In this document: positions 5,646-57,386 of the stretch, in pieces
Layout: every line of letters begins with the position of its first letter
Numbering within the stretch: the stretch's first letter is position 1
DNA from: a virus
Reading direction: 5' to 3' (one strand)
Virus record (IMG/VR): IMGVR_UViG_3300000115_000005
Length of the DNA: 64,000 nucleotides
The notes under the pieces: model-generated
What the model was told of the DNA's origin: nothing
Databases searched by the model: none
The model's input: the letters and a program-made list of their open reading frames with translations, nothing else
Made by a program: the position numbers and the translations under genes

Positions 5646-5654
5646 AATATATTA

Positions 5655-9762: not shown

Positions 9763-9908
9763 AGAAGTTAAAAGATTTTAAAAAAGAAATTACACAAAGA
9801 AATTTAGTACATTTAAATGCTCCTAAATCGGGTGCAGGTAAACACTCAGATCGTAAAAGACAAACGAAACAAGGTTATATGAAACATAAAGGAAAAATGT
9901 ATGGCTGA
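9759..9908 (+). CDS. Small basic protein (49 aa, not in ORF track)
   Basis: MKKLKDFKKEITQRNLVHLNAPKSGAGKHSDRKRQTKQGYMKHKGKMYG; overlaps both neighbours. Confidence 0.6.
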   Translation: MKKLKDFKKEITQRNLVHLNAPKSGAGKHSDRKRQTKQGYMKHKGKMYG

Positions 9909-12606: not shown

Positions 12607-12923
12607 TTAAGAAACTTTTTCTTCTTCTCATAGTCTTAAGCTTTAGTGTAGGTGCGGTACCACCACCAAGAGGTGTTGATCCTGTTGAAGCAAAAAAACG
12701 TGAAAGAATTAATAAGATACAAAGAGAGAAAGATCGTAGAGATGATATGTGGTGTTATATCAAACAGAAAAAGAAATTATCTGATGGTGGGTTTCAATGT
12801 ATATACACTTGTCCAGCTAGATGGAAAAATGGTAAAAGGCCTGAACCACATATAGAAAGTAATAATGTGGGACCAGGTTTTGGTTGCCCTAGTTCAATGA
12901 ATGTTTTAAGGAGAGGTAGATGA
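12606..12923 (+). CDS. Secreted Cys-motif protein with apparent ATT start (105 aa, not in ORF track)
   Basis: (M)KKLFLLLIVLSFSVGA signal peptide, WC...CIYTC...GCP; GGAGG at 12592-12596; fills the gap exactly with overlaps at both ends. Confidence 0.65.
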   Translation: MKKLFLLLIVLSFSVGAVPPPRGVDPVEAKKRERINKIQREKDRRDDMWCYIKQKKKLSDGGFQCIYTCPARWKNGKRPEPHIESNNVGPGFGCPSSMNVLRRGR

Positions 12924-13291
12924 TTAGGATAATAAATGCAATTGTAATACCAATTTGGTTTATACTTTTTATTTGGATCTTTACATCAACACAAGTATTA
13001 GCAAGTAATAGCGTTCAAGATACTAGCATTGGAGACAAAGTAGCTGGTGAAAAAAGATACAATGTAAATTGTAAGAATTGTCATGGACCTGCCGGTAAAG
13101 GTGCAGCCAGTTATCCTAAAATATCAGGTAAAGAAATGTCTTATATAAAAGATAGATTAGAAACATATAGAAGTGGTAAAGAAATAGGACCTAATTCAGC
13201 TTTAATGATAATGATGGCAAAATCATTGACTGATGAAGAAATAAATAATTTAGCTGCGTATCTTAAAGATGCAAAATATATGGTGAAATAA
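12920..13291 (+). CDS. Monoheme class I c-type cytochrome (c553/c4-like)
   Basis: CKNCHG heme motif, YPKISG, axial Met region ALMIMMA, LTDEEINNLAAY; N-terminal signal/TM. Confidence 0.92.
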   Translation: MIRIINAIVIPIWFILFIWIFTSTQVLASNSVQDTSIGDKVAGEKRYNVNCKNCHGPAGKGAASYPKISGKEMSYIKDRLETYRSGKEIGPNSALMIMMAKSLTDEEINNLAAYLKDAKYMVK

Positions 13292-13635
13292 TGAAACAAT
13301 TATTAGTAATGTTTACAATGTGGTTTGTATTATGTAGTGGTTTAATTTTTATTGCTAATGAAGCAACAGCGGCTTCATGTGGAAGTCCTTTTAGTGGTAA
13401 TCCACAAGCACCAAGATGGGATTTAATTAAAGCAGAAATTGACAAAGCAAATAAACATGAATATTATAGACCAGTACAAGTAAGAGAAAATATATTAGTT
13501 CATGTTTTATATGATGAAGAAAGAGAATATATTGTAATAAGTAAAACTGCTTCAATGTTAGTTCCTGAAGCTAGAGAACAATTCAAAATAGCTGTAAGAG
13601 AATGGATAAAAAAAGGAATCGAATATGGAAGTTAA
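13291..13635 (+). CDS. Secreted hypothetical protein
   Basis: Signal-peptide-like N-terminus; coupled ORF. Confidence 0.55.
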
Positions 13636-14029
13636 TCAAGAAACATTACAATTGATGGATCCTTTAGCAAAAATGCCAGAACAAGAAATGCCGGTTCCAT
13701 TTGTACTTGCTGAGAGTGCAGCTAAAAAAGTAAAAGAATTAATTAGGGAAAGTGGTGAAGAAGCTTCTCGAATGATGTTAAGAGTATTTGTACAAGGAGG
13801 AGGATGTTCTGGATTTCAATATGGCTTTTCTTTTGCTGAAGAGATAGAAGAAGATGATACTAAAGTAGAAAAGTTTGGTGTCACTATGTTAGTAGATAGT
13901 ATGAGTTATGGTTACTTGGTTGGTTCAGAAATCTATTATAAAGATGATCTTAATGGGTCACAATTTGTAATAAGAAATCCAAACGCCAAAGCAACTTGTG
14001 GGTGTGGTTCTAGTTTCGCTGCCGGTTAA
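13625..14029 (+). CDS. erpA: A-type Fe-S carrier ErpA/IscA
   Basis: [17 protein letters not shown] and [14 protein letters not shown]. Confidence 0.93.
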
Positions 14030-15264: not shown

Positions 15265-15342
15265 CTACTTAGATGCAACGTACATTGTGATTTCAAATCC
15301 AAATCTTAAATCAGTCGCTGCTGGCTTAGTCCATTTATTCAT
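15265..15342 (-). CDS. pqqA: PQQ precursor peptide PqqA (25 aa, not in ORF track)
   Basis: [25 protein letters not shown]: W-x-K-P leader, R-F-G-F and E-x-x-x-Y core; AGGAGG RBS upstream; terminator downstream. Confidence 0.96.
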
Positions 15343-29174: not shown

Positions 29175-29583
29175 TTTTCACCCTAATATTATTTAATTCT
29201 GAATAAACATTTATAGCAAAATCTTCTGCCTCTATTTCCCAAGGTTCATCTTTTACATAAATGCCACGCCAAGTATTTAGAGAGGCGGTTATTTCATGAT
29301 TTACATATTGTTTTATATGGCACATTTCATGAGCTATAGTTTCTAATAGTGATTGATTGTCTTGACCTGTTTTTAATTGAACACAATAAATTGGCACTCT
29401 GGAAAATATACTTTCATCACTTTCCCAACAATGACCTAGCATAGGTATCTTTCTCGAATATGAGAATTCAAGTATAATATCTTTTGGTAATTTTAACTTA
29501 TCACCGAAATAATCTATAGCTTTAAAATACTTTTGGCTAATACCATGAATTATCATTTTCAAGATCCACCATAATTTTTTCAT
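29158..29583 (-). CDS. Zincin metallopeptidase-like protein
   Basis: TIAHEMCHIKQY and PWEIEA. Confidence 0.75.
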   Translation of the reverse strand: MKKLWWILKMIIHGISQKYFKAIDYFGDKLKLPKDIILEFSYSRKIPMLGHCWESDESIFSRVPIYCVQLKTGQDNQSLLETIAHEMCHIKQYVNHEITASLNTWRGIYVKDEPWEIEAEDFAINVYSELNNIRVKNEKKE

Positions 29584-30298
29584 ATTTGTTGGTGATAACC
29601 CGTAGACTCATAATAGTAGAATTATATCCTTCTTCTCGGTATAAATCTTTATCCATACTCTCTTCAGTATCTTTTACCCAGAGTCTACAGCCATCAGGAG
29701 TTATTTCATCAGCGATTAATATTCGGCCTTCTGAATCGAATCCAAATTCTAATTTAAAATCAATTAAGTTAAGGCCGATATTACTAAAAACTTTTTCTAT
29801 AACTTTATTTACATTTAATGCTTGAACTTTTAAAAAACTGGTTGCATACCTCTCCTCAAAACCCATCAATGATAATCTTTCTTGAGTTAAAAGAGGATCA
29901 TTTTTACTATCATCTTTCAAATAAAATTCTACTATTGGTCTAGAAAACTTATAACCTTTCTCTATGTTAGTTTCTCTAACAATTGAGCCAGCGGCTACAT
30001 TTCTTACAACAACTTCGAGAGGTATAATATCTACTTTTTTACACCTCATAATATTCCAAGGATTACTTTCATCTAATTCTATAAAATGTGTGCTTAAGCC
30101 AGCTTCCTCTAAATGCTTAAACATAATAGAGGAAATCTTGGCATTAATATTACCTTTACCCAACATACAGTCTTTATAAAGACCGTTGCCTGCTGTTACC
30201 TTGTCTTGGTGATTAATCAAAACTTCATTTGTTTTCTCACTTTGATAAACTTTTTTTACTTTGCCTTCAATAATAAGATTTTTAGCTGGTAAATTCAT
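29537..30298 (-). CDS. purC: SAICAR synthase
   Basis: EGKVKKVY, IPLEVVVRNVAAGS, LIDFKLEFG, ADEITPDGCRLW, DKD. Confidence 0.93.
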   Translation of the reverse strand: MNLPAKNLIIEGKVKKVYQSEKTNEVLINHQDKVTAGNGLYKDCMLGKGNINAKISSIMFKHLEEAGLSTHFIELDESNPWNIMRCKKVDIIPLEVVVRNVAAGSIVRETNIEKGYKFSRPIVEFYLKDDSKNDPLLTQERLSLMGFEERYATSFLKVQALNVNKVIEKVFSNIGLNLIDFKLEFGFDSEGRILIADEITPDGCRLWVKDTEESMDKDLYREEGYNSTIMSLRVITNKYEKIMVDLENDNSWY

Positions 30299-32430: not shown

Positions 32431-32859
32431 TTATAGATCACCTTCTTTTCTATTTTCACTATAATGAGCATCAAACTTACCTCCAGGATATCTACTCTCG
32501 AGCTTTTCAATATTTTCTTGTATTACTTCATCTGGTTTTAGTCCCATTGCGGTACATGAATTTACCCAATACCAAATAATATCACCTAACTCTCTCTTGA
32601 TATGAAATTGTGTTTTTTCACTCATAGGTTTATCTTGAAATAAACACTTCTTTACAATTTCAGCTAATTCACCACCTTCTGATGCAATACCAATGGCACC
32701 TGTTAATAATCTGGCTGTATTCACACCACTTTTAGAATCAATTGCAGCCATTCTTTCATGTAACTTATTTGTTGAGCCAGAGGTTTCAGAGGTCACCTTA
32801 GTAACAAACTCTTGATATTTTTTTAAATCTATCAATTTATCACCCTTTCTTATTTTCAT
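32431..32859 (-). CDS. mazG: MazG-like nucleoside triphosphate pyrophosphohydrolase
   Basis: GIASEGGELAEIVKK, RELGDIIWY, NIEKLESRYP. Confidence 0.88.
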   Translation of the reverse strand: MKIRKGDKLIDLKKYQEFVTKVTSETSGSTNKLHERMAAIDSKSGVNTARLLTGAIGIASEGGELAEIVKKCLFQDKPMSEKTQFHIKRELGDIIWYWVNSCTAMGLKPDEVIQENIEKLESRYPGGKFDAHYSENRKEGDL

Positions 32860-33259
32860 TTAAAATTCTTATGTTTTTACCTGATACTTTTACCATAATC
32901 CAGTCATTGTAATAGTCCTCCCGTTCAAGGACACGCCTCTCCATCTGTTCCTTCAACTCTAAGTAAGCACAATCAGACCTATTAGAGCAAAGATATAATA
33001 TCTCTCTAATAAATTTATCTTCTCCGTGTTTTTTGACATCATCAATAAGAGTATTGTTTGAGCCCCAATACTTTTTCCAATCTGATGGTTTTCTAATCTT
33101 CTTTTTTTTACCTTTTACTTGTTTGTAACCGGCTTTAGTGAAGAATTTCTTTCCAATGTATCGTTTTTTATCTACAAGATTATGTATGCAATAAACGAAA
33201 CCAAAAGAATTGCCAATATCTGATTCATTAAATTCATGTCCATTGTAAGTCCAATTCAT
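32840..33259 (-). CDS. GIY-YIG nuclease family protein
   Basis: GFVYCI.N...RYIGKK, SDWKKYWGS, LE, YYN. Confidence 0.75.
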   Translation of the reverse strand: MNWTYNGHEFNESDIGNSFGFVYCIHNLVDKKRYIGKKFFTKAGYKQVKGKKKKIRKPSDWKKYWGSNNTLIDDVKKHGEDKFIREILYLCSNRSDCAYLELKEQMERRVLEREDYYNDWIMVKVSGKNIRILNENKKG

Positions 33260-33402: not shown

Positions 33403-34374
33403 TTAGGCAGCTTTTCCCCACACATCTCCCCATTTTCCTTTCATAGCACCTTTAGCATAATCAGTTGCTCTGTTTTCAAAAAAGTTCGTGTGTGTGGGTG
33501 CATTAATCATACCTTCGACCCATAATAATGGATTTCTTTTCACCTTAAATATACCTTTTAGTCCTAAGCTGATTAATCTTCTATCAGCTATGTACCGTAT
33601 ATATTGTTTTACATCTTCTGGTTTAAGATCATCCATTGGCCCCATTTTAAAAGCTAAGTCAATAAATTTATCTTCTAGTTCGACCATCTTTGTTGCAATC
33701 GTATAAATTTTACCTTTCAGATCATCATTCCAGATTTCTCTGTTTTCTTCTATGTATGTTCTGAATAATTTAATCATTGATTCGGCGTGTTGTGTTTCAT
33801 CAACAATTGACCAAGTAACGATTTGACCCATACCAACCATTTTACCATGTCTTGGAAAATTTAATAACATAATGAATGACGAAAATAATTGCATACCTTC
33901 AGTAAAAGCTGAGAACACAGCAATATGTGTTGCTGTTGATTCTTTTGTACCATTCTTTGATGATAACTCCATTACATAATCATGTTTAGCTCTCATCTCT
34001 TCATAGTCGGCAAATTCTGAATATGTTGATTCAGGCATACCAAGTGTTTCAATCAAATGAGAATAAGCTGCGATATGTAATGCTTCACGAGCCGCAAACC
34101 CAGCTAACATCATTCTTACTTCTGGTTGTGGGAAATGTGGTAAATAATTCTTTACATAACCACCTGCAACATCAATATCACCTTGAGTGAAAAATCTAAA
34201 AATATTTGTAAGAAAAGCTTTTTCTTCTTCAGAAAGCTTATTCTTCCAATCTTTTACATCTTCATTCATTGGCACTTCTGTGTGCATCCAATGTGATTGT
34301 TCATGTTTCAGCCACGCATCATAAGCCCATGGATAATTAAATGGTTTATAATATGTTCTTTCGTCTTTTAGCAT
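33403..34374 (-). CDS. nrdB: Ribonucleotide reductase class Ia beta subunit
   Basis: FFTQGD, EALHIAAYS, TEGMQLFSSF, DETQH, NFFE. Confidence 0.96.
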   Translation of the reverse strand: MLKDERTYYKPFNYPWAYDAWLKHEQSHWMHTEVPMNEDVKDWKNKLSEEEKAFLTNIFRFFTQGDIDVAGGYVKNYLPHFPQPEVRMMLAGFAAREALHIAAYSHLIETLGMPESTYSEFADYEEMRAKHDYVMELSSKNGTKESTATHIAVFSAFTEGMQLFSSFIMLLNFPRHGKMVGMGQIVTWSIVDETQHAESMIKLFRTYIEENREIWNDDLKGKIYTIATKMVELEDKFIDLAFKMGPMDDLKPEDVKQYIRYIADRRLISLGLKGIFKVKRNPLLWVEGMINAPTHTNFFENRATDYAKGAMKGKWGDVWGKAA

Positions 34375-34497
34375 TTATACTTCCTTCTTTTGAAATAGTC
34401 CTGAAATCTTTGATTGTATCACTTTCGCCCACCAAGGTTGAGGAAAGTTCCAACCAATTAAAGCACCTAAAAATAACCATAAAAGTGTATCAAACAT
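34375..34497 (-). CDS. Small membrane peptide (40 aa)
   Basis: MFDTLLWLFLGALIGWNFPQPWWAK...; AAGGA RBS. Confidence 0.55.
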   Translation of the reverse strand: MFDTLLWLFLGALIGWNFPQPWWAKVIQSKISGLFQKKEV

Positions 34498-34511: not shown

Positions 34512-35708
34512 TTAAGCCTTATACTCGGCAGCTTCCTCTGAACCGCTTGTTGCTGAACCTTCAGTATAAGAATGTTTACCTGTTCCTGCTAATGCACCAT
34601 CTTTAACAATAGTGTATTCAGTTCTTTGCTCTTCACCATCAAATAATTTTTCAAGTATTTCTCTCGTACCAGCTGCGTATCTAGCTTGAGCTGTGAGTGA
34701 GGTACCTGATGTATGAGGTGTCATACCATGATGAGGCATACTTCTCCAAGAATGGTCATTTGGTGCAGGTTGTGGGAACCAAACATCACCGGCATAACCA
34801 GCTAATTGACCTGATTCAAGTGCATCAACAATTGCTTGTCTATCACAAATCTTACCACGAGCCGTGTTTACTATGTATGCACCTTTTTTCATTTTTGAAA
34901 TTAATTCTGCATTAAATAGATTTTCGGTTTCAGGGTGTAGTGGGCAATTAATTGTTACAACATCTACCGTGGAAACTAAAGATTCGACATTATCATGATA
35001 AACTAAATTTAACTCTTCTTCTACTTCATCTGATAATTTATGCTTATCAAAATAATGCAATTCAACATCAAAAGCTTTTAGTTTTCTAAGTGCATCTAAT
35101 CCAATACGACCAGCTGCAACTGTACCAACTTTCATACCCTCTAAATCATAAGACCTTGAAACTGCATCAGCAATGTTCCAACCACCTTCATTTACAATCT
35201 TATGTTGAGTATGATAATCTCTAACCAATGCAAGAACCATCATTACAATATGTTCTGCAACTGACCTTGAATTACAGTATGTTACTTCCATCACGTCCAC
35301 GCCATTGTCCATGGCGGCCTGCAAGTCAACGTGATCTGAACCTATACCTGCTGTAATCGCCATTTTTAAGTTTGGTGCTGATTCCATTTTTTCTCTTGTG
35401 AGATAATATGGCCAGAATGGTTGAGATATAACAACATCTGCATCAACTAATTCTTTGTCTGCTGTACAACCTTCTCCATCTTTATCTGAGGTAACGACCA
35501 ACTCATGGCCATTTGATTCTAAAAATTCTCTAAGACCCAATTCACCTGATACACAACCAAGTAATTCACCGGGATTAAAATCAATAGCTTTTGGTGATGG
35601 TAATGTTTGACCATCAGGATATTTTTCAATTACTGGTAGATTTTCTATTGCATAATCTTTTGGCATACCACCAGTTGGATCGTCATATAAAATACATAAA
35701 ACTTTCAT
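34512..35708 (-). CDS. fdh: NAD-dependent formate dehydrogenase (metal-independent)
   Basis: KVLCILYDDP, LLGCVSGELGL, ISQPFWPYY, AGIGSDHVD, AAGRIG, NTARG, GDVWFPQPAP, PHTSG; Asp in YFDKH indicates NAD preference. Confidence 0.96.
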   Translation of the reverse strand: MKVLCILYDDPTGGMPKDYAIENLPVIEKYPDGQTLPSPKAIDFNPGELLGCVSGELGLREFLESNGHELVVTSDKDGEGCTADKELVDADVVISQPFWPYYLTREKMESAPNLKMAITAGIGSDHVDLQAAMDNGVDVMEVTYCNSRSVAEHIVMMVLALVRDYHTQHKIVNEGGWNIADAVSRSYDLEGMKVGTVAAGRIGLDALRKLKAFDVELHYFDKHKLSDEVEEELNLVYHDNVESLVSTVDVVTINCPLHPETENLFNAELISKMKKGAYIVNTARGKICDRQAIVDALESGQLAGYAGDVWFPQPAPNDHSWRSMPHHGMTPHTSGTSLTAQARYAAGTREILEKLFDGEEQRTEYTIVKDGALAGTGKHSYTEGSATSGSEEAAEYKA

Positions 35709-35729: not shown

Positions 35730-35936
35730 TTATTTTACAATACATAAATCTTTTGAGGCATCTAGAATATCTCTACCATCATAGAACCAAACATAACTTG
35801 TAATTAAAACACCATTGTCTGTTACATCACATTTTTTACCTAATGATATAGCCAAATGGCCTTTAAACATTTCTGGTACTGATGCACAACCAATTAAAAA
35901 AATTGGCATTAATAATAATAATAATCTTTTAAACAT
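35730..35936 (-). CDS. Small lipoprotein
   Basis: Lipobox LIGC; start reassigned to 35936. Confidence 0.6.
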   Translation of the reverse strand: MFKRLLLLLMPIFLIGCASVPEMFKGHLAISLGKKCDVTDNGVLITSYVWFYDGRDILDASKDLCIVK

Positions 35937-35940
35937 TTCA

Positions 35941-36735
35941 TTAGCCTCTTGTTGTATTTGCAAGGTCTTCCATCATCTCTTTTTGTTTTAGATCAAGACT
36001 TGCAAGTTTCTTTTCATATTCACCGATAGGGTGATCATATACACCTCTAAAAAATTGAAGTTTTTTAAAAGCGGTAAATCTACCTCTTAAACCATCTTTA
36101 ATTCTTTGCCATGGGCTTAAACCATCACGAATATTTCCATAATAGTTTAAATATTCCAATGTACCATGGTGCTTGAAAAACAAGAAAGATGGGGGTACTT
36201 TTGTAACAGCATCATTGTTGTTTACCCAACGGTGATGATCGAAGCTAAGACTATTTACAAATCTTTTATTACCAACTCTAGGTGAACCAAAAGTGTATAG
36301 TGTTAATGATTTAAAAATGCCTTGTAATCTGGCGGCACAAATAGTGGCCATTGCGGCTCCTAAACTATGACCAGTTATAGTACAAACTTTACCTTTATGC
36401 TCATCAACATAAGTTTCAATTTGATCCCATAATTTTTCAAGTTCACCATAAAATCCATCATGAACTCTACCAGCAACCTGACTCTTTTGTTTCCATGCCT
36501 TTAAGTCAGCAACAACATCACTTGCTACATCAGGTTCAGTACCTCTGAATACAAATGTTATCTCATTATCACTTGTGCAAACATAAGCTTGAGCACCATC
36601 GTGGTCAAGAAAGTCAACTGTTTTATAGTTCATTTCTTTCATAATTTGACTTTGTATATTAGTAGTCAAATCTTCATAAACGAGGCTAGATAATTCACAA
36701 TATTTTAAATCGTTATATCTCAAATCGGTTTTCAT
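35941..36735 (-). CDS. Lipase class 3 (alpha/beta hydrolase)
   Basis: FRGTE, VHDGF, TGHSLGAA, TFGSPRVGN, D.V..VP, DH..EY. Confidence 0.9.
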   Translation of the reverse strand: MKTDLRYNDLKYCELSSLVYEDLTTNIQSQIMKEMNYKTVDFLDHDGAQAYVCTSDNEITFVFRGTEPDVASDVVADLKAWKQKSQVAGRVHDGFYGELEKLWDQIETYVDEHKGKVCTITGHSLGAAMATICAARLQGIFKSLTLYTFGSPRVGNKRFVNSLSFDHHRWVNNNDAVTKVPPSFLFFKHHGTLEYLNYYGNIRDGLSPWQRIKDGLRGRFTAFKKLQFFRGVYDHPIGEYEKKLASLDLKQKEMMEDLANTTRG

Positions 36736-36742
36736 AATACTC

Positions 36743-37153
36743 CTAATTTAGTTTTTCAATTCTAACTTTTACATCATTAGTTTTATCTTTATAGTTCTGA
36801 ACAGCAGCTTTGATGGCATCTTCAGCTAAAATTGAGCAATGTATTTTTACTGGTGGTAAACATAGTTCTTTTGCAATCTCAACATTCTTAATTGATTCTG
36901 CATCATCAATCGTTCTACCTTTTACCCATTCAGTCATTAAACTACTGCTTGCTATGGCTGAACCACAGCCATATGTTTTAAATTTTGCATCTGTAATGAT
37001 ACCATCATCATTTACTTTTATTTGTAATTTCATTACATCACCACAGGCCGGTGCACCGACCATACCCGTACCAACATCTGAGTCATTCTTATTCATTGAT
37101 CCTACATTTCTAGGATTTTCATAATGATCTATAACTTTTTCGCTATATGCCAT
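36743..37153 (-). CDS. iscU: Fe-S cluster scaffold IscU
   Basis: MAYSEKVIDHYENPRNVG, APACGDVM, FKTYGCGSAIASSS, LPPVKIHC. Confidence 0.96.
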   Translation of the reverse strand: MAYSEKVIDHYENPRNVGSMNKNDSDVGTGMVGAPACGDVMKLQIKVNDDGIITDAKFKTYGCGSAIASSSLMTEWVKGRTIDDAESIKNVEIAKELCLPPVKIHCSILAEDAIKAAVQNYKDKTNDVKVRIEKLN

Positions 37154-37294: not shown

Positions 37295-39316
37295 TTAACC
37301 TTCACAAGCGGTACATTCATCTGATTCTGGCTGTTGGTTGAGGTGTATCATCAACTCACTATATCCTCCAATATATTCATTCTCCAGATAAATCTGTGGT
37401 ACTGTTGTAACAGGTCGACCTGTTACTTCAGCTGCTGTTTTACCTAGTTCTTTAATATTAACAAAATCAAAAGTAATACCTCTTTCAGAAAACTCATCTT
37501 TAGTTTTTTGACACCAACCGCAAGTTAAAGTTCCATAAATGATTGCTTGTGTCCTTGTTTCACCTTCTGCGATTGCTTTTAAATCTAAACCTTTAATTAC
37601 ATCTCTTTCAACTTTTCTTGATATTTTATCGGCTTTACCAATCTTTTCTGAACGACAATAGTAAAGAGTTTTAAGCCCTTGCTTCCATGCCATAAAATGT
37701 GTTGCGTGTAAATATTTTACATTTACGTCCGGCCGAAAGAATAGGTTAACGGATTGAGCCTGGTCAATGTAATTTTGTCGGTCAGCTGCGTGCTCCACAA
37801 CCCATCTTTGGTCAATTTCCATACTCGTTTTGAAGATGTCCTTTTCCCGGTCATTGAGTAAATTAAGGTGTTGTACGGATCCATCGGTAGCGATAATGTT
37901 GCTCCAGATTTTCTGATAGTCAAGATCATTTTTTGCTCTTTCTGTAATTATTTTATCAAGAAATTTGTTTTTATGTAGATATGCACCAGATAAAGTATCT
38001 TGCCTATAAGCATTTGCACGATATGGTTCTATACTAGGGCTTGTATTACCCATAATAATACTACTAGAAGCATTGGGAGCAATAGCCATAAGGTGAGAAA
38101 ACCTACGGCCAGTACCAGCAGCATCAGGAGCTTCTCCTCTAATTTTACCGAGATCCAAATTTGCTTCATCTAATCCCCTCCTAATATGTCTAAAGATTTC
38201 CACGTTTCTTGACTTTGCAAGTGCGGATTCATAAGGTATTCCATGATCTTGTAAATGAGCATGGAAACCAAGAGCACCAATACCAATGCTACGTTCATTT
38301 ATAGCACTATATTTTGCACGGTGTACAGCATCAGGACTATTATCAATAAAATACTGAAGCACATTATCTAGCATCTCCGCTACGTCTTTAAGAAAAAGAG
38401 TATTATCTTTCCATTTATCAAAATATTCTAGATTGAGTGAAGATAAACAACATACAGCTGTTCTTTCTTCGTTAGTAGGTAATATAATTTCTGAACAAAG
38501 ATTTGATTGTCTAATACTTAATCCTTTTTTCTTTTGAAACTCTGGCATTTCTCTATTACTCGTATCAATAAAATGTAAGTATGGTTCGCCAGTCATCATT
38601 CGTATTTCAAGTATTTTTTGCCATAACTTTTTAGCCGATATTTTTTCTTTTATTTCTCCCGAATGTGGATCTATTAGTTCCCATGTATCATCAAATTCTT
38701 CATCAACCATGGCATTTTCAATAAGATTCATAAATTTATCGGTAATGTTAATACCATGATGCAAATTCATTGTTCTCATATTAGGATCGCCAGTTGGCTT
38801 TCTTATATCTAAAAACTGTATAATATCAGGATGAGATACATCAAGATAAGCTGCATAAGAACCTCTGCGAGTTCTACCTTGTCTATATGCTAAACTTGAA
38901 GCATCATATGTTTTTAAGTGTGGCATTACACCAGTTGATTTATCATCGCTGGAACGTATTCCTAGACCAATCCCGACACCACCACCTAACATTGATAACC
39001 AGTTCACCTCGGAGAGAGTGTCAACCAAACCTTCTCTACTATCATGAAGATAAGGGAGGAAACAAGAAATAGGAAGGCCACGCTTACTACGACCAAAAGA
39101 TAAGATAGGAGTAGAATAAGACAACCAATGACTACTAGAATATTCATATAGACGTTGTGCATGAGCATCATCAGTTCCGAAAGCTTTTGATACATAAGCA
39201 AATCTCTCCTGTGGTGAAACTTCTTCCTCTTTCATGTAAGATTCTTTTAATCTTCTTAAACCTAGAGTATCGAATAGTTTATCTTTTTCTACATCTATTG
39301 AAATTTTGTGATTCAT
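37295..39316 (-). CDS. nrdA: Ribonucleotide reductase class Ia alpha subunit (no ATP cone) with glutaredoxin domain in the C-terminal tail
   Basis: PISCF, SNLCSEI, VCCLSSLN, APNASSS, KTLYY; then IYG...CGWC...TVPQIY...YIGGY, then terminal CTACEG; start may be 39316 or 39355. Confidence 0.95.
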   Translation of the reverse strand: MNHKISIDVEKDKLFDTLGLRRLKESYMKEEEVSPQERFAYVSKAFGTDDAHAQRLYEYSSSHWLSYSTPILSFGRSKRGLPISCFLPYLHDSREGLVDTLSEVNWLSMLGGGVGIGLGIRSSDDKSTGVMPHLKTYDASSLAYRQGRTRRGSYAAYLDVSHPDIIQFLDIRKPTGDPNMRTMNLHHGINITDKFMNLIENAMVDEEFDDTWELIDPHSGEIKEKISAKKLWQKILEIRMMTGEPYLHFIDTSNREMPEFQKKKGLSIRQSNLCSEIILPTNEERTAVCCLSSLNLEYFDKWKDNTLFLKDVAEMLDNVLQYFIDNSPDAVHRAKYSAINERSIGIGALGFHAHLQDHGIPYESALAKSRNVEIFRHIRRGLDEANLDLGKIRGEAPDAAGTGRRFSHLMAIAPNASSSIIMGNTSPSIEPYRANAYRQDTLSGAYLHKNKFLDKIITERAKNDLDYQKIWSNIIATDGSVQHLNLLNDREKDIFKTSMEIDQRWVVEHAADRQNYIDQAQSVNLFFRPDVNVKYLHATHFMAWKQGLKTLYYCRSEKIGKADKISRKVERDVIKGLDLKAIAEGETRTQAIIYGTLTCGWCQKTKDEFSERGITFDFVNIKELGKTAAEVTGRPVTTVPQIYLENEYIGGYSELMIHLNQQPESDECTACEG

Positions 39317-39332
39317 CAGTTTTGTTATCCTA

Positions 39333-40007
39333 TTAATATATTGCTTTAGTAACATTTGGAAAGTTATCTCCTATTATAGACCAGCATTGCTTTGCAATTT
39401 CCATATGCTCTTTTTGCGTGCCATTTGACATTCGCAATCCACAATAATGTATCCATGATCTTAAAGTTCCCGACATATAAAGTTTACTCATCATAAGACC
39501 TTCAGGTAAAATACATCTAGCTTGTTCTTTTGCCATACCCTTATCTACTAAATGTTTATAACTATCAATTGCGAACTCTTTAATTTTTTTCTGCCTTTGT
39601 TCAAAGACATATTGTAAATAACTATGAGCTGGATTTTCTTCGTCCATCATAATACTATTTTGTCTATTTTTAGTATCTTGTAATCTTGATTCTCTTTGTG
39701 CAAATTCCAACTCTTTTGTTGGATCTGCGTATCTCTGACTAAACTCTTGAAAAGAAAATGATCTATGTCTCAATATTTGTCTTCCAATATCTCTTGTAGT
39801 GTTTATTTCTAACACAATATGCACCATCTCAAAAGGAGACCAATGTTTGTTATCAATTAAATATTTTATTAATTTGTCAGAACTTTCAAAATTATTTTGA
39901 TTACTTGGATTAGATACTCTAGCCATATAGATTATTGCATCTTCTGGAGTTTTACCTTTCAAATCGCCAAAGAATGACGAAATGCCAACTAAATGTACAT
40001 TTTTCAT
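39333..40007 (-). CDS. thyX: Flavin-dependent thymidylate synthase
   Basis: HWSPFE, QILRHRSFSFQEFSQRY, KEQAR. Confidence 0.95.
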   Translation of the reverse strand: MKNVHLVGISSFFGDLKGKTPEDAIIYMARVSNPSNQNNFESSDKLIKYLIDNKHWSPFEMVHIVLEINTTRDIGRQILRHRSFSFQEFSQRYADPTKELEFAQRESRLQDTKNRQNSIMMDEENPAHSYLQYVFEQRQKKIKEFAIDSYKHLVDKGMAKEQARCILPEGLMMSKLYMSGTLRSWIHYCGLRMSNGTQKEHMEIAKQCWSIIGDNFPNVTKAIY

Positions 40008-45168: not shown

Positions 45169-46714
45169 TCTTATTATCGTTGTCATTGGAAGGATTATCA
45201 GGTCTCATGATCTGACTTGTTAAGGTCGGATCTGATTCAAATTTATCTTTAACAACTAAATTATTTTCTTTCTTTTTTCTAACTTTTTTAACTTTTTCAA
45301 AAATGCTTGTATTTTCATCTTGCATCGCTAACTTTGTTGCTGTTGCATACATTACATTTTTAGCATCATCACCATATCTGTCTTTAAAACCTTTCATTTT
45401 AGGTTTCATAGACATTACAATTTTTTCACGTTTTTTCATTTGACCATCAGTCATATGACCTTCACTTACACCCATCTTTTGACGTTGCAATATTTTTTTA
45501 GTTTGTATCTTATCATCAGCTTTTTGAATACCTTGCATCCTTTTTTTTGCTTCTGGACTTGTTAATTTTCTACCTTTTCTAGGATCAATTTTATCCTCAT
45601 AATCATCCATTGCTTTATCTCTATAACTTCTTAATGTTCTTACATTAAGTTCATCAATCTGTTCAACTTCTTCATTTGTAGGGTATAAAAGGTAATCTCT
45701 CATACTATCCATATATGCAGCTGCAACGGCAAGTTTATTTGTCCACCAACTTGGTAATGACTCAACTGAACCCATCATAGCTAATCTAGTTTGTATATCA
45801 CCTGCATCTTCCATAATTGTTTTACATTTTCTCATAGCTGATGCTACATCTGTATGTCCATCTTCAAGTATTTCTGTTTCTTCATATTGGCCACTACCTT
45901 GAAAACCACCTTTTTGTATAGCTGTTGACATATCACCAAGTGTTGCTTGATCTTTTGTCATTTTTAAATTTCTTAAAAATTTCTTTTTACCTTTTTTTTC
46001 TGTTCCGCAATGACCTTCACTTACTGATTCAGATGGTGTCATTGTTACGGTTCTACCATAACTATCTTTACCAACTACTTTGGTATTTGGATTCTTTTTG
46101 CCTTGGTGATCATCATATCCTTTATTATAATCAGAAGCGTAAGGCCCGTAGTTGTCAGATGTTTCCCCTCTTTTATCTCCAGCTAATGCTTTTTTCTTGC
46201 CTAAGTTGTAGTGATATTTTGCTTCAGATTCATCAATATATTCTACTGACTCTGGAACTCCACCTTTCATTTTACGGCCTTTATCAACTAACTTACGAGC
46301 AGCTTTTGCTAAACCAGTTTGACGATTGCTGACCTTTCTAAAATCTTTTTTATCATCATATTCATTTTTACTCATGCTTTTGGCACCCATCTTATACGAT
46401 CTTCTAGCCAAATCACCACCAGCTTTTGTTGCGTAGTTACCCAAAGTCTTTGGTGATAGTTCATCAATCTGCTCTATATCTTCATTGGTTTTTTGTGTAA
46501 GTTTATTTGCAGCTCTACCAATACCAACTACTCTTTTCCGCATCTTCTGGCTTCTTTTCTCCCTGTCTGGGTCATTTTTTTTCGCATCACCACCTTTAAC
46601 CACAGACTGTACTATTTTTGCACCATGGTCCACACCTTTATCTCTAAGGTTATCTGCAGCTCCCATTTGATAACGAGCGAGAGTGTATTTACTGAGTTCT
46701 TTTAAAGTTTTCAT
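45164..46714 (-). CDS. Modular internal-head-like protein with EQIDEL repeats
   Basis: Basic modules separated by acidic E.(I/V)E.(I/L)(D/E)E linkers. Confidence 0.65.
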   Translation of the reverse strand: MKTLKELSKYTLARYQMGAADNLRDKGVDHGAKIVQSVVKGGDAKKNDPDREKRSQKMRKRVVGIGRAANKLTQKTNEDIEQIDELSPKTLGNYATKAGGDLARRSYKMGAKSMSKNEYDDKKDFRKVSNRQTGLAKAARKLVDKGRKMKGGVPESVEYIDESEAKYHYNLGKKKALAGDKRGETSDNYGPYASDYNKGYDDHQGKKNPNTKVVGKDSYGRTVTMTPSESVSEGHCGTEKKGKKKFLRNLKMTKDQATLGDMSTAIQKGGFQGSGQYEETEILEDGHTDVASAMRKCKTIMEDAGDIQTRLAMMGSVESLPSWWTNKLAVAAAYMDSMRDYLLYPTNEEVEQIDELNVRTLRSYRDKAMDDYEDKIDPRKGRKLTSPEAKKRMQGIQKADDKIQTKKILQRQKMGVSEGHMTDGQMKKREKIVMSMKPKMKGFKDRYGDDAKNVMYATATKLAMQDENTSIFEKVKKVRKKKENNLVVKDKFESDPTLTSQIMRPDNPSNDNDNKI

Positions 46715-47091
46715 CCTTTTCTCCAGCTTCCGCCTTTTGATTTATACCACTTAGAAGCCCAACCATTTGCATAAGCTGATGGATAAACATCAAACTTTGA
46801 TTTTGCTAATGATTTTGCTCTTGACCATAATTTAGGATTAGTTGGTACATTTTTTTCTTCTATGTACTCAACTTCTTCTTTATAAGAGGATTGACCTGGA
46901 CGACCACCATATAACTGAGCCTTCATTTGAAGTCTACCTTTAGCTTTGTCTATACCCATTGCTCTTTTTTTGGCCTTAGGTGTATTACCTTTCATATCCA
47001 TGGCTCGGTCAACTTGGTCATCTTCAGCTTTACTTTTATAACTTCTTAAAGTTTTAGTATCGAGTTCATCAATCTGCTCTATATCTTCATT
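45648..47091. repeat. Dispersed 29-nt repeat encoding NE(D/E)(I/V)EQIDEL
   Basis: agttcatcaatctgctctatatcttcatt at 46458-46486 and 47063-47091; variant copy at 45648-45676. Confidence 0.8.
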
Positions 47092-48645
47092 TTGTTTTCT
47101 TAACTCTTTTGATACAGCAGGGTGTTGGGCGAGACCTTTATTGACCTTATCCATAGTCTTTACAGCACCGGTCATATTACCTTTTGCGAATCTCTTATCA
47201 CGAGCTATCCCAATAGCCTGCTTAACTTGCTTTTTTGAGGGGGTGCCCTCCTCTAACTGCTCAACTTCCTCATTAGTGGCTTTCTTAACTTCCATATACT
47301 CTATTGCTTCAGCAGTTTGCGGTCTTTTGAATGCTTGATACCCTGCTTTTATTTTTTTACCCAACTTTTTAATACCTTGTTGAGCTTTGTGACCAACTAA
47401 TCCTCCAACAGCTGCACCAACTGGTCCAGCCATCATTGCACCGCCAACTGCCCCAGCAGTAGCACCTAAAGCACCTTCATCTATCTCTTCATTTGCTTTT
47501 TGTTTGCTTAAAGGTAATGACATCTGTTTTGGTTTTGGTTTTTTTATCTTATTCATATCAGCCTGTGCTTTCTTCACAGCTGTATCAAAATCATGGCCAG
47601 CGTCCATGTGACCTGTAACCATATCTTTCATTCTACCTTCTTGAAGAGAAACACTTATTGCCTCTAATGGCGCCTCTTCAAGCATTGTTAGTTTATCAAA
47701 GAAAGAAGCTGACTCATTTACGTCTTTACCACTTACTTTGGTACCACGAACTATGTTTTGTCTAGCGCCATAACTACCTCTTTTCTTTGGCTCAGATTTT
47801 CTTGTCATTGCTTTTTTCATTGTTTGCTCTTCTTCACCACCTCTACCATAATCACTCGCACCATATTTGGCACCTTGAGCTAGTTTAGCCTTGTGTCTGG
47901 TAACTCCTTTTGGTAATACTTCAACTTCATTGACATATTCAACAGCTTCTTTAGAAACTTTCATACTGACTAAACGATCAGGTTTATCCATGGTCACGGT
48001 GCGTTTTGCAGGTTTTTTCTTTGCACGAAGCATCTTTAAATCTTCGGCATCTACTTTATTATTTTTATTCATGTCTAGTTTCTTTTGACCTCCGTGTAAT
48101 TCACCATGAGCCTCATCTACTGATTTGACATCTGGTAACATTTTTTCTATTCTTTCAGATTGGCTTTTGTGCATCTTTGAAGCACCAGCCAGTTCTTTAG
48201 AAATCTTTTTAAGTTTTTCTTTATCTTCACCTATTTGATTTCTATTATTTAAAGTTTGTAAAGGTACCATTCCATATTTTTCACGAATCACATTAATTTT
48301 TTCAACTATATCCGATTGTTCATTGGATAAAGGGGTGGATTGCATAGCATCTTGTGTTAGAGATTTGAGAGATTCGACATCTTCTTCACTCATAGTGTCT
48401 AAGGGTAGATCAAACACGTTTACATTTTCAACTTTAACTGCTTGTTGAAGTCCTTTAGCAACACCAGCTTCCTCTTCAGGTGTTTTCTTTTTTGAGGCTT
48501 TAGTTTGTGTTTTTTTCAACTCTTGGTCAAATTCTGTATTAGTAGGTTCTTCACTAAGCACTTGTGATACTGGTTGAACACCATACATAATCTTATTGAC
48601 CTCGTCTGTGACACTTTTAAGTGCCTCCGAATCTTTCGATTTCAT
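46711..48645 (-). CDS. Modular internal-head-like protein with EQIDEL repeats
   Basis: Same linkers; EF-hand-like DMNKNNKVDAED; C-terminal KFDVYPSAYANGW module. Confidence 0.65.
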   Translation of the reverse strand: MKSKDSEALKSVTDEVNKIMYGVQPVSQVLSEEPTNTEFDQELKKTQTKASKKKTPEEEAGVAKGLQQAVKVENVNVFDLPLDTMSEEDVESLKSLTQDAMQSTPLSNEQSDIVEKINVIREKYGMVPLQTLNNRNQIGEDKEKLKKISKELAGASKMHKSQSERIEKMLPDVKSVDEAHGELHGGQKKLDMNKNNKVDAEDLKMLRAKKKPAKRTVTMDKPDRLVSMKVSKEAVEYVNEVEVLPKGVTRHKAKLAQGAKYGASDYGRGGEEEQTMKKAMTRKSEPKKRGSYGARQNIVRGTKVSGKDVNESASFFDKLTMLEEAPLEAISVSLQEGRMKDMVTGHMDAGHDFDTAVKKAQADMNKIKKPKPKQMSLPLSKQKANEEIDEGALGATAGAVGGAMMAGPVGAAVGGLVGHKAQQGIKKLGKKIKAGYQAFKRPQTAEAIEYMEVKKATNEEVEQLEEGTPSKKQVKQAIGIARDKRFAKGNMTGAVKTMDKVNKGLAQHPAVSKELRKQNEDIEQIDELDTKTLRSYKSKAEDDQVDRAMDMKGNTPKAKKRAMGIDKAKGRLQMKAQLYGGRPGQSSYKEEVEYIEEKNVPTNPKLWSRAKSLAKSKFDVYPSAYANGWASKWYKSKGGSWRKG

Positions 48646-56297: not shown

Positions 56298-57386
56298 CTA
56301 TCCTTTTATATATTGTTTAAATTTAACCAGTTGTCCTGGTGTCATTCTCTTATAATTTTTTACTACTTTATCCGTGCCCTCTTCTCCAGCTCCGTATTCT
56401 TCTTCAACACTACCTTTTTTATAATATGGATTTTTTGGGTTAGCATCTTCACTTTCATCTGGCCACCAATCATTAGTGTAAGTTTTACCAGATTCATTCA
56501 TCTTAATCATGTCTTTTATTCTTTTTTCATATTCATCTTTACTAGGTTTCACCCTCTTTGCAACAACATCAAGAACATAATTAAGTGTTACTGCATTTGC
56601 TGTAAGTGAACCACATCTAGCACCAACTTGATTTTTTAGAAAGTCAATTAAAATACTTTCACTACTATTTGCCAAAGGGTCAGCTAAATCATGTGGCACT
56701 TTTAAGTCAACATAACTATACACGAAATCATAGTGTGGTGCAGGTGATCCATGTAAGATGTATTCATCTTTTACAACTATTCTTTGAAAGCCATCTTTTG
56801 CATACCAAACAGCTCTATGATCTGTAAGTTCATCTGGTTGACCAAAAGTTTTTGTTAAATGTTTTGTGTACTTTACTGGTTCTTCATTTTTCCAGTTTTC
56901 TAATGGTGAATTTTTCATTTCGTTTACGCTCTTGTGTAGTTTAACTCCTGTAACATTATGAATCAAATCACGAAATTCTTTATGATTTTTATTTTTAATA
57001 TGTGAATTCAATTTTCTTTTTTGGTTAGGTGTAGCTTTTGAATGAAACTTCACTAACTCCATAACTCCAAGATTACCAGAATATGCAGCTTCATTCATTT
57101 TCTTTGTTTTCTTTTTCATAACATTAATAAAACTACGATACACAGCGGCTGCACCTGTTTTACCCATTACTCTAGCTCTTTGTTCCATAGCTATCGCTGC
57201 TTGAATCTTATGGGCGTGTGATCGTCCGCTTGACTTAATTTTTCGTACTGAAGCTTCTGCATCAGACTTACTTGCGAATTTGAGCCCGTGAATGGTTCCT
57301 TTCGGATCCTCGTCTGTGTAGAGGTCTGAGTGCTTTTTAGATTTTGCTGGTTGACCCGATTTTCTTGAGATTCTTGGATTACTCAT
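56298..57386 (-). CDS. Modular phage protein
   Basis: KHSDLYTDEDPKGTIHGL module plus further modules joined at MNE/VNE/VEE. Confidence 0.6.
   Translation of the reverse strand: MSNPRISRKSGQPAKSKKHSDLYTDEDPKGTIHGLKFASKSDAEASVRKIKSSGRSHAHKIQAAIAMEQRARVMGKTGAAAVYRSFINVMKKKTKKMNEAAYSGNLGVMELVKFHSKATPNQKRKLNSHIKNKNHKEFRDLIHNVTGVKLHKSVNEMKNSPLENWKNEEPVKYTKHLTKTFGQPDELTDHRAVWYAKDGFQRIVVKDEYILHGSPAPHYDFVYSYVDLKVPHDLADPLANSSESILIDFLKNQVGARCGSLTANAVTLNYVLDVVAKRVKPSKDEYEKRIKDMIKMNESGKTYTNDWWPDESEDANPKNPYYKKGSVEEEYGAGEEGTDKVVKNYKRMTPGQLVKFKQYIKG

What the first reader, a model, noticed from the sequence alone, without database searches (positions are those of the whole stretch)
34512..35708. Full-length metal-independent NAD-formate dehydrogenase between nrdA and nrdB
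Seen: a 398-aa protein closely following the Pseudomonas sp. 101-type FDH pattern, with catalytic Arg (NTARG), the Gln/His pair (PQP, PHTSG) and the NAD-selective Asp. It is co-oriented inside the nrdA-iscU-lipase-fdh-nrdB block. A one-subunit FDH needing no metal cofactor is easily portable. Inference: it supplies reductant timed with dNTP synthesis. ThyX, also adjacent, consumes NAD(P)H and methylene-THF.
Basis: partly seen in the sequence, partly recalled or inferred. Interest (0 to 1): 0.78.

Follow-up and report, generated by a model that had tools for sequence, protein, structure and literature searches.

The report
Phage-borne NAD-dependent formate dehydrogenase gene
An uncultured marine T4-like phage carries an intact, selectively maintained copy of the simple one-subunit enzyme that burns formate to CO2 and makes NADH; relatives of the gene, closest to those of SAR11 bacteria, sit in dozens of other ocean phage fragments, so it is a real but little-described helper gene, and the enzyme itself is ordinary.

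Summary
Window 34512-35708, on the minus strand, encodes a 398-aa metal-independent NAD+-dependent formate dehydrogenase (FDH). It scores 655 bits on NF005750 against a cut-off of 329 and aligns without gaps to Pseudomonas sp. 101 FDH. All catalytic and NAD-binding residues are present. The gene lies between nrdA (with a fused glutaredoxin), iscU and a lipase on one side and nrdB on the other.

It is not a mis-assembly. About 15 IMG/VR contigs from different metagenomes share the arrangement, and dN/dS is 0.07-0.09.

Viral FDHs form at least three clades. A single viral clade is rejected (AU p = 0.00016). The window's clade nests among SAR11-type FDHs.

- The enzyme is of the NAD type, not NADP.
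- FDH sits in other contexts in other phage lineages.
- The nrdA-nrdB gap is a variable cargo slot (-34 to 4722 bp in 68 loci).

My best reading is a helper gene that lets the infected cell draw NADH from formate, the end product of one-carbon oxidation, without the host's molybdenum enzyme.

A 2020 pelagimyophage paper mentions a phage FDH in one sentence, and this scan met a similar gene on another genome. I class it as a new member of a known kind, of moderate interest. The host is unresolved: SAR11 or a PQQ-making methylotroph.

The parts
34512..35708 (-). NAD+-dependent, metal-independent formate dehydrogenase (398 aa)
   Evidence: NF005750 655 bits vs cut-off 329. Ungapped full-length match to PDB 2go1/2nac. 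All catalytic and NAD-binding residues present. dN/dS 0.07-0.09 within its viral clade.
34375..34497 (-). 40-aa hydrophobic small ORF between FDH and nrdB. It accounts for the extra ~120 bp compared with the closest relatives.
   Evidence: Translation. In L001/L003 the FDH-nrdB gap is only 17 bp. Function unknown; whether it is a real gene was not tested.
35730..35963 (-). Small ORF with an internal Met followed by a lipoprotein-type signal (..LIGC..), between the lipase and FDH
   Evidence: Translation. Weak homologues on L012, L034, L042 and L059. No Pfam or NCBIfam hit.
35941..36735 (-). Class 3 lipase-family protein (264 aa)
   Evidence: PF01764 86.6 bits. Present upstream of FDH in L001-L003, L005 and L065, and a 48% relative in L018.
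36743..37153 (-). IscU Fe-S cluster scaffold (136 aa)
   Evidence: TIGR01999 232 bits, PF01592. Adjacent to FDH in 13 V1 loci and 4 V2 loci. Alone in the nrdA-nrdB gap in the nearest FDH-less relatives L160/L161.
37295..39355 (-). Class I ribonucleotide reductase large subunit NrdA with a C-terminal glutaredoxin domain (686 aa)
   Evidence: PF02867, PF00317 and PF00462 at residues 605-662.
33403..34374 (-). Ribonucleotide reductase small subunit NrdB (323 aa)
   Evidence: PF00268 257.7 bits. 98-99% identical in L001-L005, L008 and L013-L014.
39333..40007 (-). Flavin-dependent thymidylate synthase ThyX
   Evidence: PF02511 141 bits.
32840..33259 (-). SegE-like GIY-YIG homing endonuclease just downstream of nrdB
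   Evidence: PF19835 121.7 bits. A relative lies downstream of nrdB in most related loci.

Best explanation
The gene is a working auxiliary metabolic gene. It encodes a single-subunit, cofactor-free NAD+-dependent formate dehydrogenase (formate + NAD+ -> CO2 + NADH). The window's clade of the gene nests among FDHs of SAR11-type marine bacteria, so it was most likely captured from that gene pool. It now sits as cargo in the variable nrdA-nrdB slot of an uncultured marine T4-like myophage.

It is probably transcribed with the replication and nucleotide-metabolism genes around it. In that case the infected cell can keep oxidising formate after host gene expression fails. Formate is the end product of tetrahydrofolate-linked one-carbon oxidation of methylated compounds, and a small amount also comes from peptide deformylation. 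Oxidising it would feed NADH to respiration and, indirectly, to biosynthesis.

The enzyme needs no molybdenum cofactor, Fe-S clusters or partner subunits. It can therefore work in hosts that have only the Mo-dependent enzyme or no FDH at all.

Shown here: the enzyme family, intact active site, viral context, conservation, purifying selection and phylogeny. Inferred: expression timing, direction of flux, source of the formate and benefit to the phage.
For: - Family and active site.
- Viral context: T4-type primase, helicase, UvsX, RNase H, segE and mazG around it.
- The same nrdA-iscU-(lipase)-FDH-nrdB order occurs in about 15 IMG/VR contigs from different metagenomes.
- Flanks of viral FDH loci do not match flanks of cellular FDH loci.
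- Third-position GC of FDH is 0.185, like the neighbouring phage genes at 0.17-0.27.
- dN/dS is 0.07-0.09 at dS up to 1.16 within the clade, similar to the cellular pair compared, 0.076.
- Phylogeny: the window's clade has SH-aLRT support 99 and sits inside a clade of support 97 with Pelagibacteraceae, Fonsibacter and related single-cell genomes.
- Distribution: FDH of this type was found in 53 of 201 Pelagibacteraceae genomes but only 5 of 401 genomes sampled across the phylum.
- In Pelagibacteraceae it never co-occurs with Mo-dependent FdhF (0 overlap, 18.5 expected). The two therefore look like alternative terminal enzymes of the same pathway, which is described for SAR11 in PMC3160333.
- Host THF-oxidation genes, including fdhD, go up during pelagiphage infection (PMC12753301).
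- The same phage carries other energy and cofactor helper genes: pqqA, a cytochrome c, ErpA, IscU and PurC.
Against: - No activity, expression or host data exist.
- The host is not identified. The FDH tree points to SAR11, but the phage also carries pqqA, and PqqC was not found in 201 Pelagibacteraceae genomes (the positive control worked). The FDH may therefore act in a different host from its donor.
- NADH from formate may be a small part of the infected cell's budget. Formate from deformylation alone would be energetically trivial by my own rough estimate.
- The promoter and terminator scans are consensus matches no better than shuffled sequence, so co-transcription is not shown.
Confidence: 0.7

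Rival explanations
1. Dedicated reductant supply for dNTP synthesis. FDH is placed between nrdA and nrdB so that formate-derived reducing power is made exactly when RNR (through its fused glutaredoxin) and ThyX need electrons.
For: - Position inside the RNR pair is conserved in 8 loci that hold both nrd genes and in further partial ones.
- NrdA carries a glutaredoxin domain and ThyX is adjacent.
- No late promoter or convincing terminator was seen inside the block.
- In several V2 loci FDH is also within a few kb of primase or nrd genes.
Against: - Asp221 is invariant, so the enzyme should make NADH, whereas the thioredoxin/glutaredoxin route to RNR runs on NADPH (established biochemistry; residue check).
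- Relatives L011 and L051 have nrdA and nrdB adjacent with FDH elsewhere.
- Most V2 and all V3 loci show no RNR near FDH.
- The gap is a general cargo slot of -34 to 4722 bp, and 53 of 68 loci carry none of the window's gap genes there.
- A homing endonuclease sits next door.
Confidence: 0.12
2. Folate-pool management. By removing formate, the phage FDH pulls 10-formyl-THF -> formate + THF (+ATP) forward. This frees tetrahydrofolate for the methylene-THF that ThyX needs, rather than serving mainly as an energy source.
For: - ThyX and PurC are on the same phage.
- SAR11-type hosts route large one-carbon fluxes through THF (PMC3160333).
- The FDH types are mutually exclusive in SAR11, which ties this enzyme to that pathway.
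Against: - Purely inferential. No folate enzymes (Fhs, FolD, PurU) were seen among the window ORFs scanned.
- It makes the same prediction of formate oxidation as the main reading, so it is hard to separate from it.
Confidence: 0.1
3. Selectively neutral passenger. The gene was dropped into a recombination hot spot, perhaps by homing-endonuclease activity, and has no role for the phage.
For: The nrdA-nrdB gap is hypervariable and flanked by a segE-like endonuclease. The nearest relatives L160/L161 lack FDH.
Against: - dN/dS is 0.07-0.09 while synonymous sites are near saturation.
- All active-site residues are invariant in 57 viral copies.
- Viral copies fall in at least three separate clades.
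Confidence: 0.05
4. Assembly artefact or host DNA wrongly joined to phage DNA.
For: The protein is 78-82% identical to cellular FDHs. IMG/VR contains some non-viral sequence.
Against: - The same gene order appears in about 15 contigs from different metagenome datasets.
- Phage genes lie on both sides within the window.
- Flanks never match cellular FDH flanks.
- The viral clade is distinct from every cellular sequence, with 99 support.
Confidence: 0.01

Closest known systems
NAD+-dependent formate dehydrogenase of Pseudomonas sp. 101 and Moraxella sp. C-1 (PDB 2nac/2nad, 2go1, 2gsd; EC 1.17.1.9)
   Same: Same length. Ungapped alignment over about 396 residues (E about 1e-187). Same two-domain D-2-hydroxyacid dehydrogenase architecture. 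Identical catalytic and NAD-binding residues.
   Different: Encoded by a phage. Position 354 is Lys instead of Cys in 12 viral copies including the window's, and position 222 is Lys instead of Arg in 30 of 57 viral copies. From my own knowledge, Cys354 is one of the oxidation-sensitive cysteines of the Pseudomonas enzyme. I did not test whether the change matters.
Single-subunit NAD-FDH of SAR11 (Pelagibacteraceae) single-cell genomes
   Same: 78-82% amino-acid identity. The window's clade nests among them. Low third-position GC.
   Different: Different genomic flanks. The viral clade is separated by a long, well-supported branch.
'Formate dehydrogenase' noted as unique to the deep-ecotype pelagimyophage PMP-MAVG-4 (Zaragoza-Solas et al. 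2020, PMC7029224)
   Same: An FDH gene in a marine T4-like phage, interpreted as an energy-related helper gene. My V2 clade of viral FDHs lies next to CsgF/CsgG curli genes, which that paper describes in pelagimyophages.
   Different: - That paper gives one sentence, cites the Mo/selenocysteine FDH-H structure, and proposes proton-gradient generation.
- I could not check that its gene is of this family: no GenBank phage record in the collection searched holds a close FDH.
- The window's phage carries mazG, which the paper says pelagimyophages lack. Its FDH belongs to a different clade and sits in a different place.
One-carbon helper genes of T4-like phages of Methylophilaceae (methanol dehydrogenase, pqqA, peptide deformylase; Coutinho et al. 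2020, PMC7678222)
   Same: T4-like phages carrying pqqA and RNR genes, read as boosting one-carbon oxidation. The window also has pqqA.
   Different: No FDH is reported there. Those phages are from fresh water, and the host was predicted rather than shown.
Molybdenum-dependent FdhF/FdsB formate dehydrogenase of cultured SAR11 Ia strains (PMC3160333)
   Same: Same reaction and same place at the end of THF-linked one-carbon oxidation.
   Different: Unrelated protein family that needs molybdopterin, Fe-S clusters and accessory genes. It is mutually exclusive with the NAD-FDH type in the 201 genomes searched.

Membership tests
Metal-independent NAD+-dependent formate dehydrogenase (NF005750 / EC 1.17.1.9) | Full-length match above the curated family cut-off | tested here: met
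   655.1 bits vs 329, model positions 3-385 of 386. The next family, PGDH, scores 168 bits and is below its own cut-off.
Metal-independent NAD+-dependent formate dehydrogenase (NF005750 / EC 1.17.1.9) | Two-domain D-isomer 2-hydroxyacid dehydrogenase architecture (catalytic plus NAD-binding domain) | tested here: met
   PF02826 at residues 155-333 and PF00389 at residues 60-362.
Metal-independent NAD+-dependent formate dehydrogenase (NF005750 / EC 1.17.1.9) | Substrate and catalytic residues Pro97, Phe98, Ile122, Asn146, Arg284, Gln313, His332 (Pseudomonas sp. 101 numbering) | tested here: met
   All present, and invariant in 57 viral, 80 cellular and 5 outgroup sequences. Numbering follows the ungapped alignment to 2nac. 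The roles of the residues come from established literature, not tested here.
Metal-independent NAD+-dependent formate dehydrogenase (NF005750 / EC 1.17.1.9) | NAD-binding fingerprint A198-x-G200-x-x-G203 and the NAD-selectivity residue Asp221 | tested here: met
   GTVAAGRIG and HYFDKH.
Metal-independent NAD+-dependent formate dehydrogenase (NF005750 / EC 1.17.1.9) | Formate:NAD+ oxidoreductase activity | not testable with these tools
   Needs expression and an enzyme assay.
Phage auxiliary metabolic gene | Encoded inside a bona fide phage genome, not host DNA | tested here: met
   T4-type replication and recombination genes on both sides. Synteny repeated in about 15 independent viral contigs. 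Flanks are unlike cellular loci.
Phage auxiliary metabolic gene | Cellular homologue of metabolic function with evidence of transfer | tested here: met
   Nests within SAR11-type FDHs. One viral clade is rejected, AU p = 0.00016.
Phage auxiliary metabolic gene | Maintained by purifying selection in the phage | tested here: met
   dN/dS 0.07-0.09.
Phage auxiliary metabolic gene | Expressed during infection and changes host metabolism | not testable with these tools
   No transcript data and no cultured host.
Dedicated RNR electron-donor system (NrdH/thioredoxin/glutaredoxin plus NADPH-dependent reductase) | Delivers electrons via NADPH or directly to the RNR redox tail | tested here: not met
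   Asp221 predicts NAD+ specificity. There is no thioredoxin-like or reductase domain in FDH.
Dedicated RNR electron-donor system (NrdH/thioredoxin/glutaredoxin plus NADPH-dependent reductase) | Consistent genomic linkage to nrd genes across lineages | tested here: not met
   Linked in the V1 sub-lineage only. Other contexts are seen in V2, V3, L011, L012 and L051.

The most novel reading that the evidence does not exclude
The FDH is one part of a phage-encoded one-carbon respiration kit. The same phage carries pqqA (precursor of the cofactor of methanol/alcohol dehydrogenases), a periplasmic-type monohaem cytochrome c, Fe-S carriers IscU and ErpA, and, according to an unchecked note on the neighbouring window, peptide deformylase and an alternative oxidase. 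On this reading the phage infects a PQQ-making methylovore (an OM43-like methylotroph rather than SAR11) and boosts both the entry step and the terminal formate-to-CO2 step of one-carbon oxidation, using an FDH borrowed from the SAR11 gene pool because it needs no metal cofactor.
Probability: 0.25. Interest if true: 0.7.

Novelty: new member of a known kind. Interest (0 to 1): 0.45.

Why it matters
Formate is the last intermediate when SAR11 and marine methylotrophs burn methylated compounds. These are among the most abundant cells in the sea.

A cofactor-free formate dehydrogenase carried by several lineages of large ocean phages would mean that infection keeps, or even adds, this CO2-releasing, NADH-yielding step. 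That bears on how viral infection shapes marine one-carbon fluxes.

The gene is easy to test: one small soluble enzyme with a simple spectrophotometric assay.

Two by-products may be useful in themselves:
- The single-subunit and molybdenum-dependent enzymes never co-occur in the 201 Pelagibacteraceae genomes searched.
- The nrdA-nrdB gap of these phages is a variable cargo slot.

The enzyme itself holds no mechanistic surprise.

Tried and rejected
- The window's own genome is not held. I could not look beyond the window for deformylase, oxidase or structural genes.
- GenBank phage records: no close FDH. The best hits, 46% in 'Staphylococcus phage' records, look like host DNA. I therefore could not confirm that the FDH of PMP-MAVG-4 is of this type.
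- Giant-virus origin of the large FDH-bearing contigs, suggested by low CheckV completeness: no NCLDV capsid match, though nothing rang in the controls either. One contig has a T4 Gp23 capsid, one has a T4-like helicase, and the neighbours are phage-like. Rejected.
- Cellular contamination of the IMG/VR loci: rejected, because the flanks differ from cellular loci.
- Host identification:
  - FDH phylogeny and RNR nucleotide similarity to pelagiphages point to SAR11.
  - pqqA together with no PqqC found in 201 Pelagibacteraceae genomes points away from it.
  - Only two of the 101 Pelagibacteraceae genomes searched held an IscU above 42% identity to the phage's (72% and 56%), and the 72% copy lies beside an ErpA-like gene on a 116-kb contig and looks cellular.
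  - The host is left unresolved. I had no handle on an OM43 genome to test directly.
- Alternative oxidase on five related FDH-bearing contigs: not found, with no positive control.
- Promoter and terminator scans: counts no better than shuffled sequence, so they do not settle the operon structure.
- Structure prediction and the large representative search were not run. The near-identity to solved FDHs made them unnecessary.

Full report
**What is there**

The ORF at 34512-35708 is on the minus strand; the plus strand there is full of stops. It encodes 398 residues with an ATG start and an AAGGA-type ribosome-binding site.

- Pfam finds the two domains of D-isomer 2-hydroxyacid dehydrogenases.
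- NCBIfam places it in NF005750, NAD-dependent formate dehydrogenase, at 655 bits against a cut-off of 329. Every other family of the superfamily falls below its own cut-off.
- Against solved structures it aligns without a gap over about 396 residues to the FDHs of Pseudomonas sp. 101 and Moraxella C-1, E about 1e-187.
- With that numbering Pro97, Phe98, Ile122, Asn146, Arg284, Asp308, Gln313, His332, Ser334, the A198-x-G200-x-x-G203 fingerprint and Asp221 are all present. They are invariant in 57 viral, 80 cellular and 5 outgroup sequences.
- Two surface-type differences mark viral copies: Cys354 is Lys in 12 viral copies including the window's, and Arg222 is Lys in 30 of the 57 viral copies.

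The only addition is that the gene is on the minus strand.

**Surroundings**

All genes from 41049 down to 32431 are on the minus strand and tightly packed. In order they are:

1. gp61-type primase
2. ThyX
3. NrdA with a fused C-terminal glutaredoxin
4. IscU
5. a class 3 lipase
6. a small ORF with a lipobox
7. FDH
8. a 40-aa hydrophobic ORF
9. NrdB
10. a SegE-like GIY-YIG endonuclease
11. MazG

The rest of the window holds T4-type helicase, UvsX, RNase H, sugar-nucleotide and glycosyltransferase genes, PurC, ClpP, pqqA, a cytochrome c and an ErpA-like carrier. The helicase is about 60% and the primase about 43% identical to those of cyano- and pelagimyophages. The window is thus part of an uncultured marine T4-like myophage.

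No TATAAATA late promoter lies inside the block, and no convincing minus-strand terminator either. These scans are no better than shuffled sequence, so co-transcription is plausible but not shown.

**Is it really viral?**

A scan of IMG/VR found 69 loci encoding a relative. About 15 of them, from different metagenome datasets, repeat the order nrdA-iscU-(lipase)-FDH-nrdB-segE with FDH 87-97% identical.

- The flanks of viral FDH loci do not resemble the flanks of cellular FDH loci.
- Third-position GC of the gene matches the neighbouring phage genes.
- Within the window's clade, dN/dS is 0.07-0.09 while dS reaches 1.16, about the same as between two SAR11 copies.

Mis-assembly and a decaying passenger are both ruled out for practical purposes.

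**Where it came from**

The nearest cellular proteins (78-82% identity) are from Pelagibacteraceae single-cell genomes and a few Rhodobiaceae/Hyphomicrobiales MAGs.

This FDH type was found in 53 of 201 Pelagibacteraceae species genomes, against 5 of 401 genomes sampled across the phylum. One of the 53, G473, is an unpublished genome; without it the count is 52 of 200.

In trees rooted on four distant genomes, viral sequences fall into at least three clades:

- **V1:** the window plus L001-L012, SH-aLRT 99. It lies inside a clade of support 97 with SAR11, Fonsibacter and related single-cell genomes.
- **V2:** 31 loci, sister to one SAR86 single-cell contig.
- **V3:** 11 loci, next to another SAR11 group.

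Holding all viral sequences together costs 129 log-likelihood units and is rejected (AU p = 0.00016). The gene has therefore moved between cells and phages, or between phages, several times.

The neighbours differ between clades:

- V2 neighbours include CsgF/CsgG curli genes, CHASE2, a peroxiredoxin-like redoxin and PTPS. The curli genes are those Zaragoza-Solas et al. describe in pelagimyophages.
- One V2 locus has NadE, a phosphoribosyltransferase, a ligase and a clamp loader beside FDH.
- V3 neighbours are UvdE, clamp loader and Cpn10. One 196-kb V3 contig has a Gp23 capsid gene.

**Does the position mean coupling to RNR?**

I collected 68 IMG/VR loci that hold both nrdA and nrdB at 50% identity or more to the window's. 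The distance between the two genes runs from -34 to 4722 bp, with a median of 922 bp.

| Content of the nrdA-nrdB gap | Loci |
|---|---|
| FDH with IscU | 8 |
| IscU alone | 7 |
| None of the window's gap genes | 53 |

- The nearest FDH-less relatives (L160, L161) have nrdA-iscU-nrdB.
- L011 and L051 have nrdA next to nrdB, with FDH further downstream.
- A SegE-like homing endonuclease nearly always follows nrdB.

The slot thus behaves as a recombination hot spot that collects cargo, and FDH is one such cargo in one sub-lineage.

The invariant Asp221 predicts NADH, not NADPH, as the product. By established biochemistry, class Ia RNR is reduced through thioredoxin or glutaredoxin from NADPH. 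A direct, dedicated link to dNTP synthesis is therefore not supported. Indirect benefit through general reducing power remains possible.

**Most likely function**

In cultured SAR11, methyl groups are oxidised through tetrahydrofolate to formate, and then to CO2 by a molybdenum-dependent FdhF/FdsB enzyme (PMC3160333). Among the 201 Pelagibacteraceae genomes, 70 have FdhF and 53 have the single-subunit FDH, and none has both. The expected overlap is 18.5, and the hypergeometric P is 1e-12, uncorrected for phylogeny. The two enzymes look like alternatives for the same step.

A phage copy of the simple enzyme would secure or add that step during infection without molybdopterin, Fe-S clusters or partner subunits. 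It would yield NADH for respiration. Host THF-oxidation genes, including fdhD, are reported to rise during pelagiphage infection (PMC12753301).

Peptide deformylase, another source of formate, is on three of five FDH-bearing viral contigs tested and is core in pelagimyophages. By my own rough estimate, one formate per protein chain is a tiny fraction of the cost of making that chain. Deformylation alone is therefore unlikely to explain the gene.

**Host**

The host is unresolved.

- The FDH tree and the similarity of the RNR genes to those of pelagiphages favour SAR11.
- The phage also carries a genuine pqqA (PF08042, 41.9 bits) and a monohaem cytochrome c. PqqC was not found in 201 Pelagibacteraceae genomes, while the same search found it in three of five other FDH-bearing genomes.
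- pqqA also occurs on the contig of L012, which belongs to the same FDH clade.
- Methylophilaceae use a multi-subunit FDH (PMC4109929), and T4-like phages predicted to infect them carry pqqA (PMC7678222).

A PQQ-making methylotroph is therefore a serious alternative host. The functional reading holds for either host.

**Prior knowledge and novelty**

- Zaragoza-Solas et al. (PMC7029224) list 'a formate dehydrogenase' among genes unique to one deep-water pelagimyophage. They cite the Mo/selenocysteine enzyme and suggest proton-gradient generation.
- Further full-text searches found no paper that describes a phage NAD-type FDH.
- No close FDH is present in 50,697 GenBank phage records.
- This scan has already met a similar gene on another phage genome (note e1-5863036) and reached the same general conclusion.

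The finding is therefore a new member of a known kind. The enzyme is ordinary. Its presence in phages is known in passing but under-described. The nrdA-nrdB placement is a lineage-specific accident of a cargo slot rather than a new mechanism.

Noticed in passing
window 37295-33403 (nrdA to nrdB) and IMG/VR loci L001-L069, L158-L235: The nrdA-nrdB intergenic space of this phage family is a hypervariable cargo slot: -34 to 4722 bp in 68 loci, median 922. A SegE-like GIY-YIG endonuclease almost always lies just downstream of nrdB. I did not look at what fills the larger gaps in other loci.
   Followed up: partly
Pelagibacteraceae genomes G001, G406-G604 (not the window): Single-subunit NAD-FDH (53 of 201) and Mo-dependent FdhF (70 of 201) never co-occur in the genomes searched (18.5 expected; P about 1e-12, uncorrected for phylogeny). 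Many of these genomes may be incomplete, and one (G473) is unpublished.
   Followed up: partly
window 12920-13291 (+): Phage-encoded monohaem c-type cytochrome (123 aa, CKNCH motif, hydrophobic N-terminus; PF00034 47.6 bits). It lies next to an ErpA-like Fe-S carrier at 13625-14029 (+) and about 2 kb from pqqA.
   Followed up: partly
window 15265-15342 (-): A 25-codon pqqA (PF08042, 41.9 bits) followed by a GC-rich hairpin and T-run. PqqC was not found in 201 Pelagibacteraceae genomes, which argues against a SAR11 host. pqqA is also on the contig of L012 (G611), which belongs to the same FDH clade.
   Followed up: partly
window 35730-35963 (-) and 34375-34497 (-): Two small ORFs flank FDH. One has an internal Met followed by a lipoprotein signal (..LIGC..). 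The other is a 40-aa hydrophobic peptide. Both are absent from the closest relatives L001/L003. Another genome in this scan has FDH beside lipase and spanin-like genes, so a lipase/small-membrane-protein/FDH cassette may travel together.
   Followed up: no
window 9901-12606 (+): A 901-aa ORF with a glycine-rich domain (PF21722; phrog_2295). It causes a local GC rise to 0.49 with strong positive GC skew in a 32% GC genome, and it lies on the opposite strand to almost everything else.
   Followed up: no
window 29537-30298 (-), 3660-4220 (-), 4207-6449 (-): Further helper-type genes: PurC (SAICAR synthetase), a ClpP-family protease, and a dTDP-sugar epimerase / NAD-epimerase / GT2 cluster.
   Followed up: no
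L017 5493-7546 (IMG/VR contig of 127 kb): In one V2 phage contig FDH lies directly downstream of an NAD synthase (NadE) and a phosphoribosyltransferase. That places an NAD-using enzyme next to genes that may take part in NAD synthesis.
   Followed up: no
L157 (G486 contig 11, 14.6 kb, in a Pelagibacteraceae genome): A short contig in a Pelagibacteraceae genome carries an IscU 54% identical to the phage's, an ErpA-like gene, and fragments similar to two phage ORFs of the window (46711-48645 and 56298-57386). It may be phage DNA inside that genome assembly and so a possible host link.
   Followed up: no
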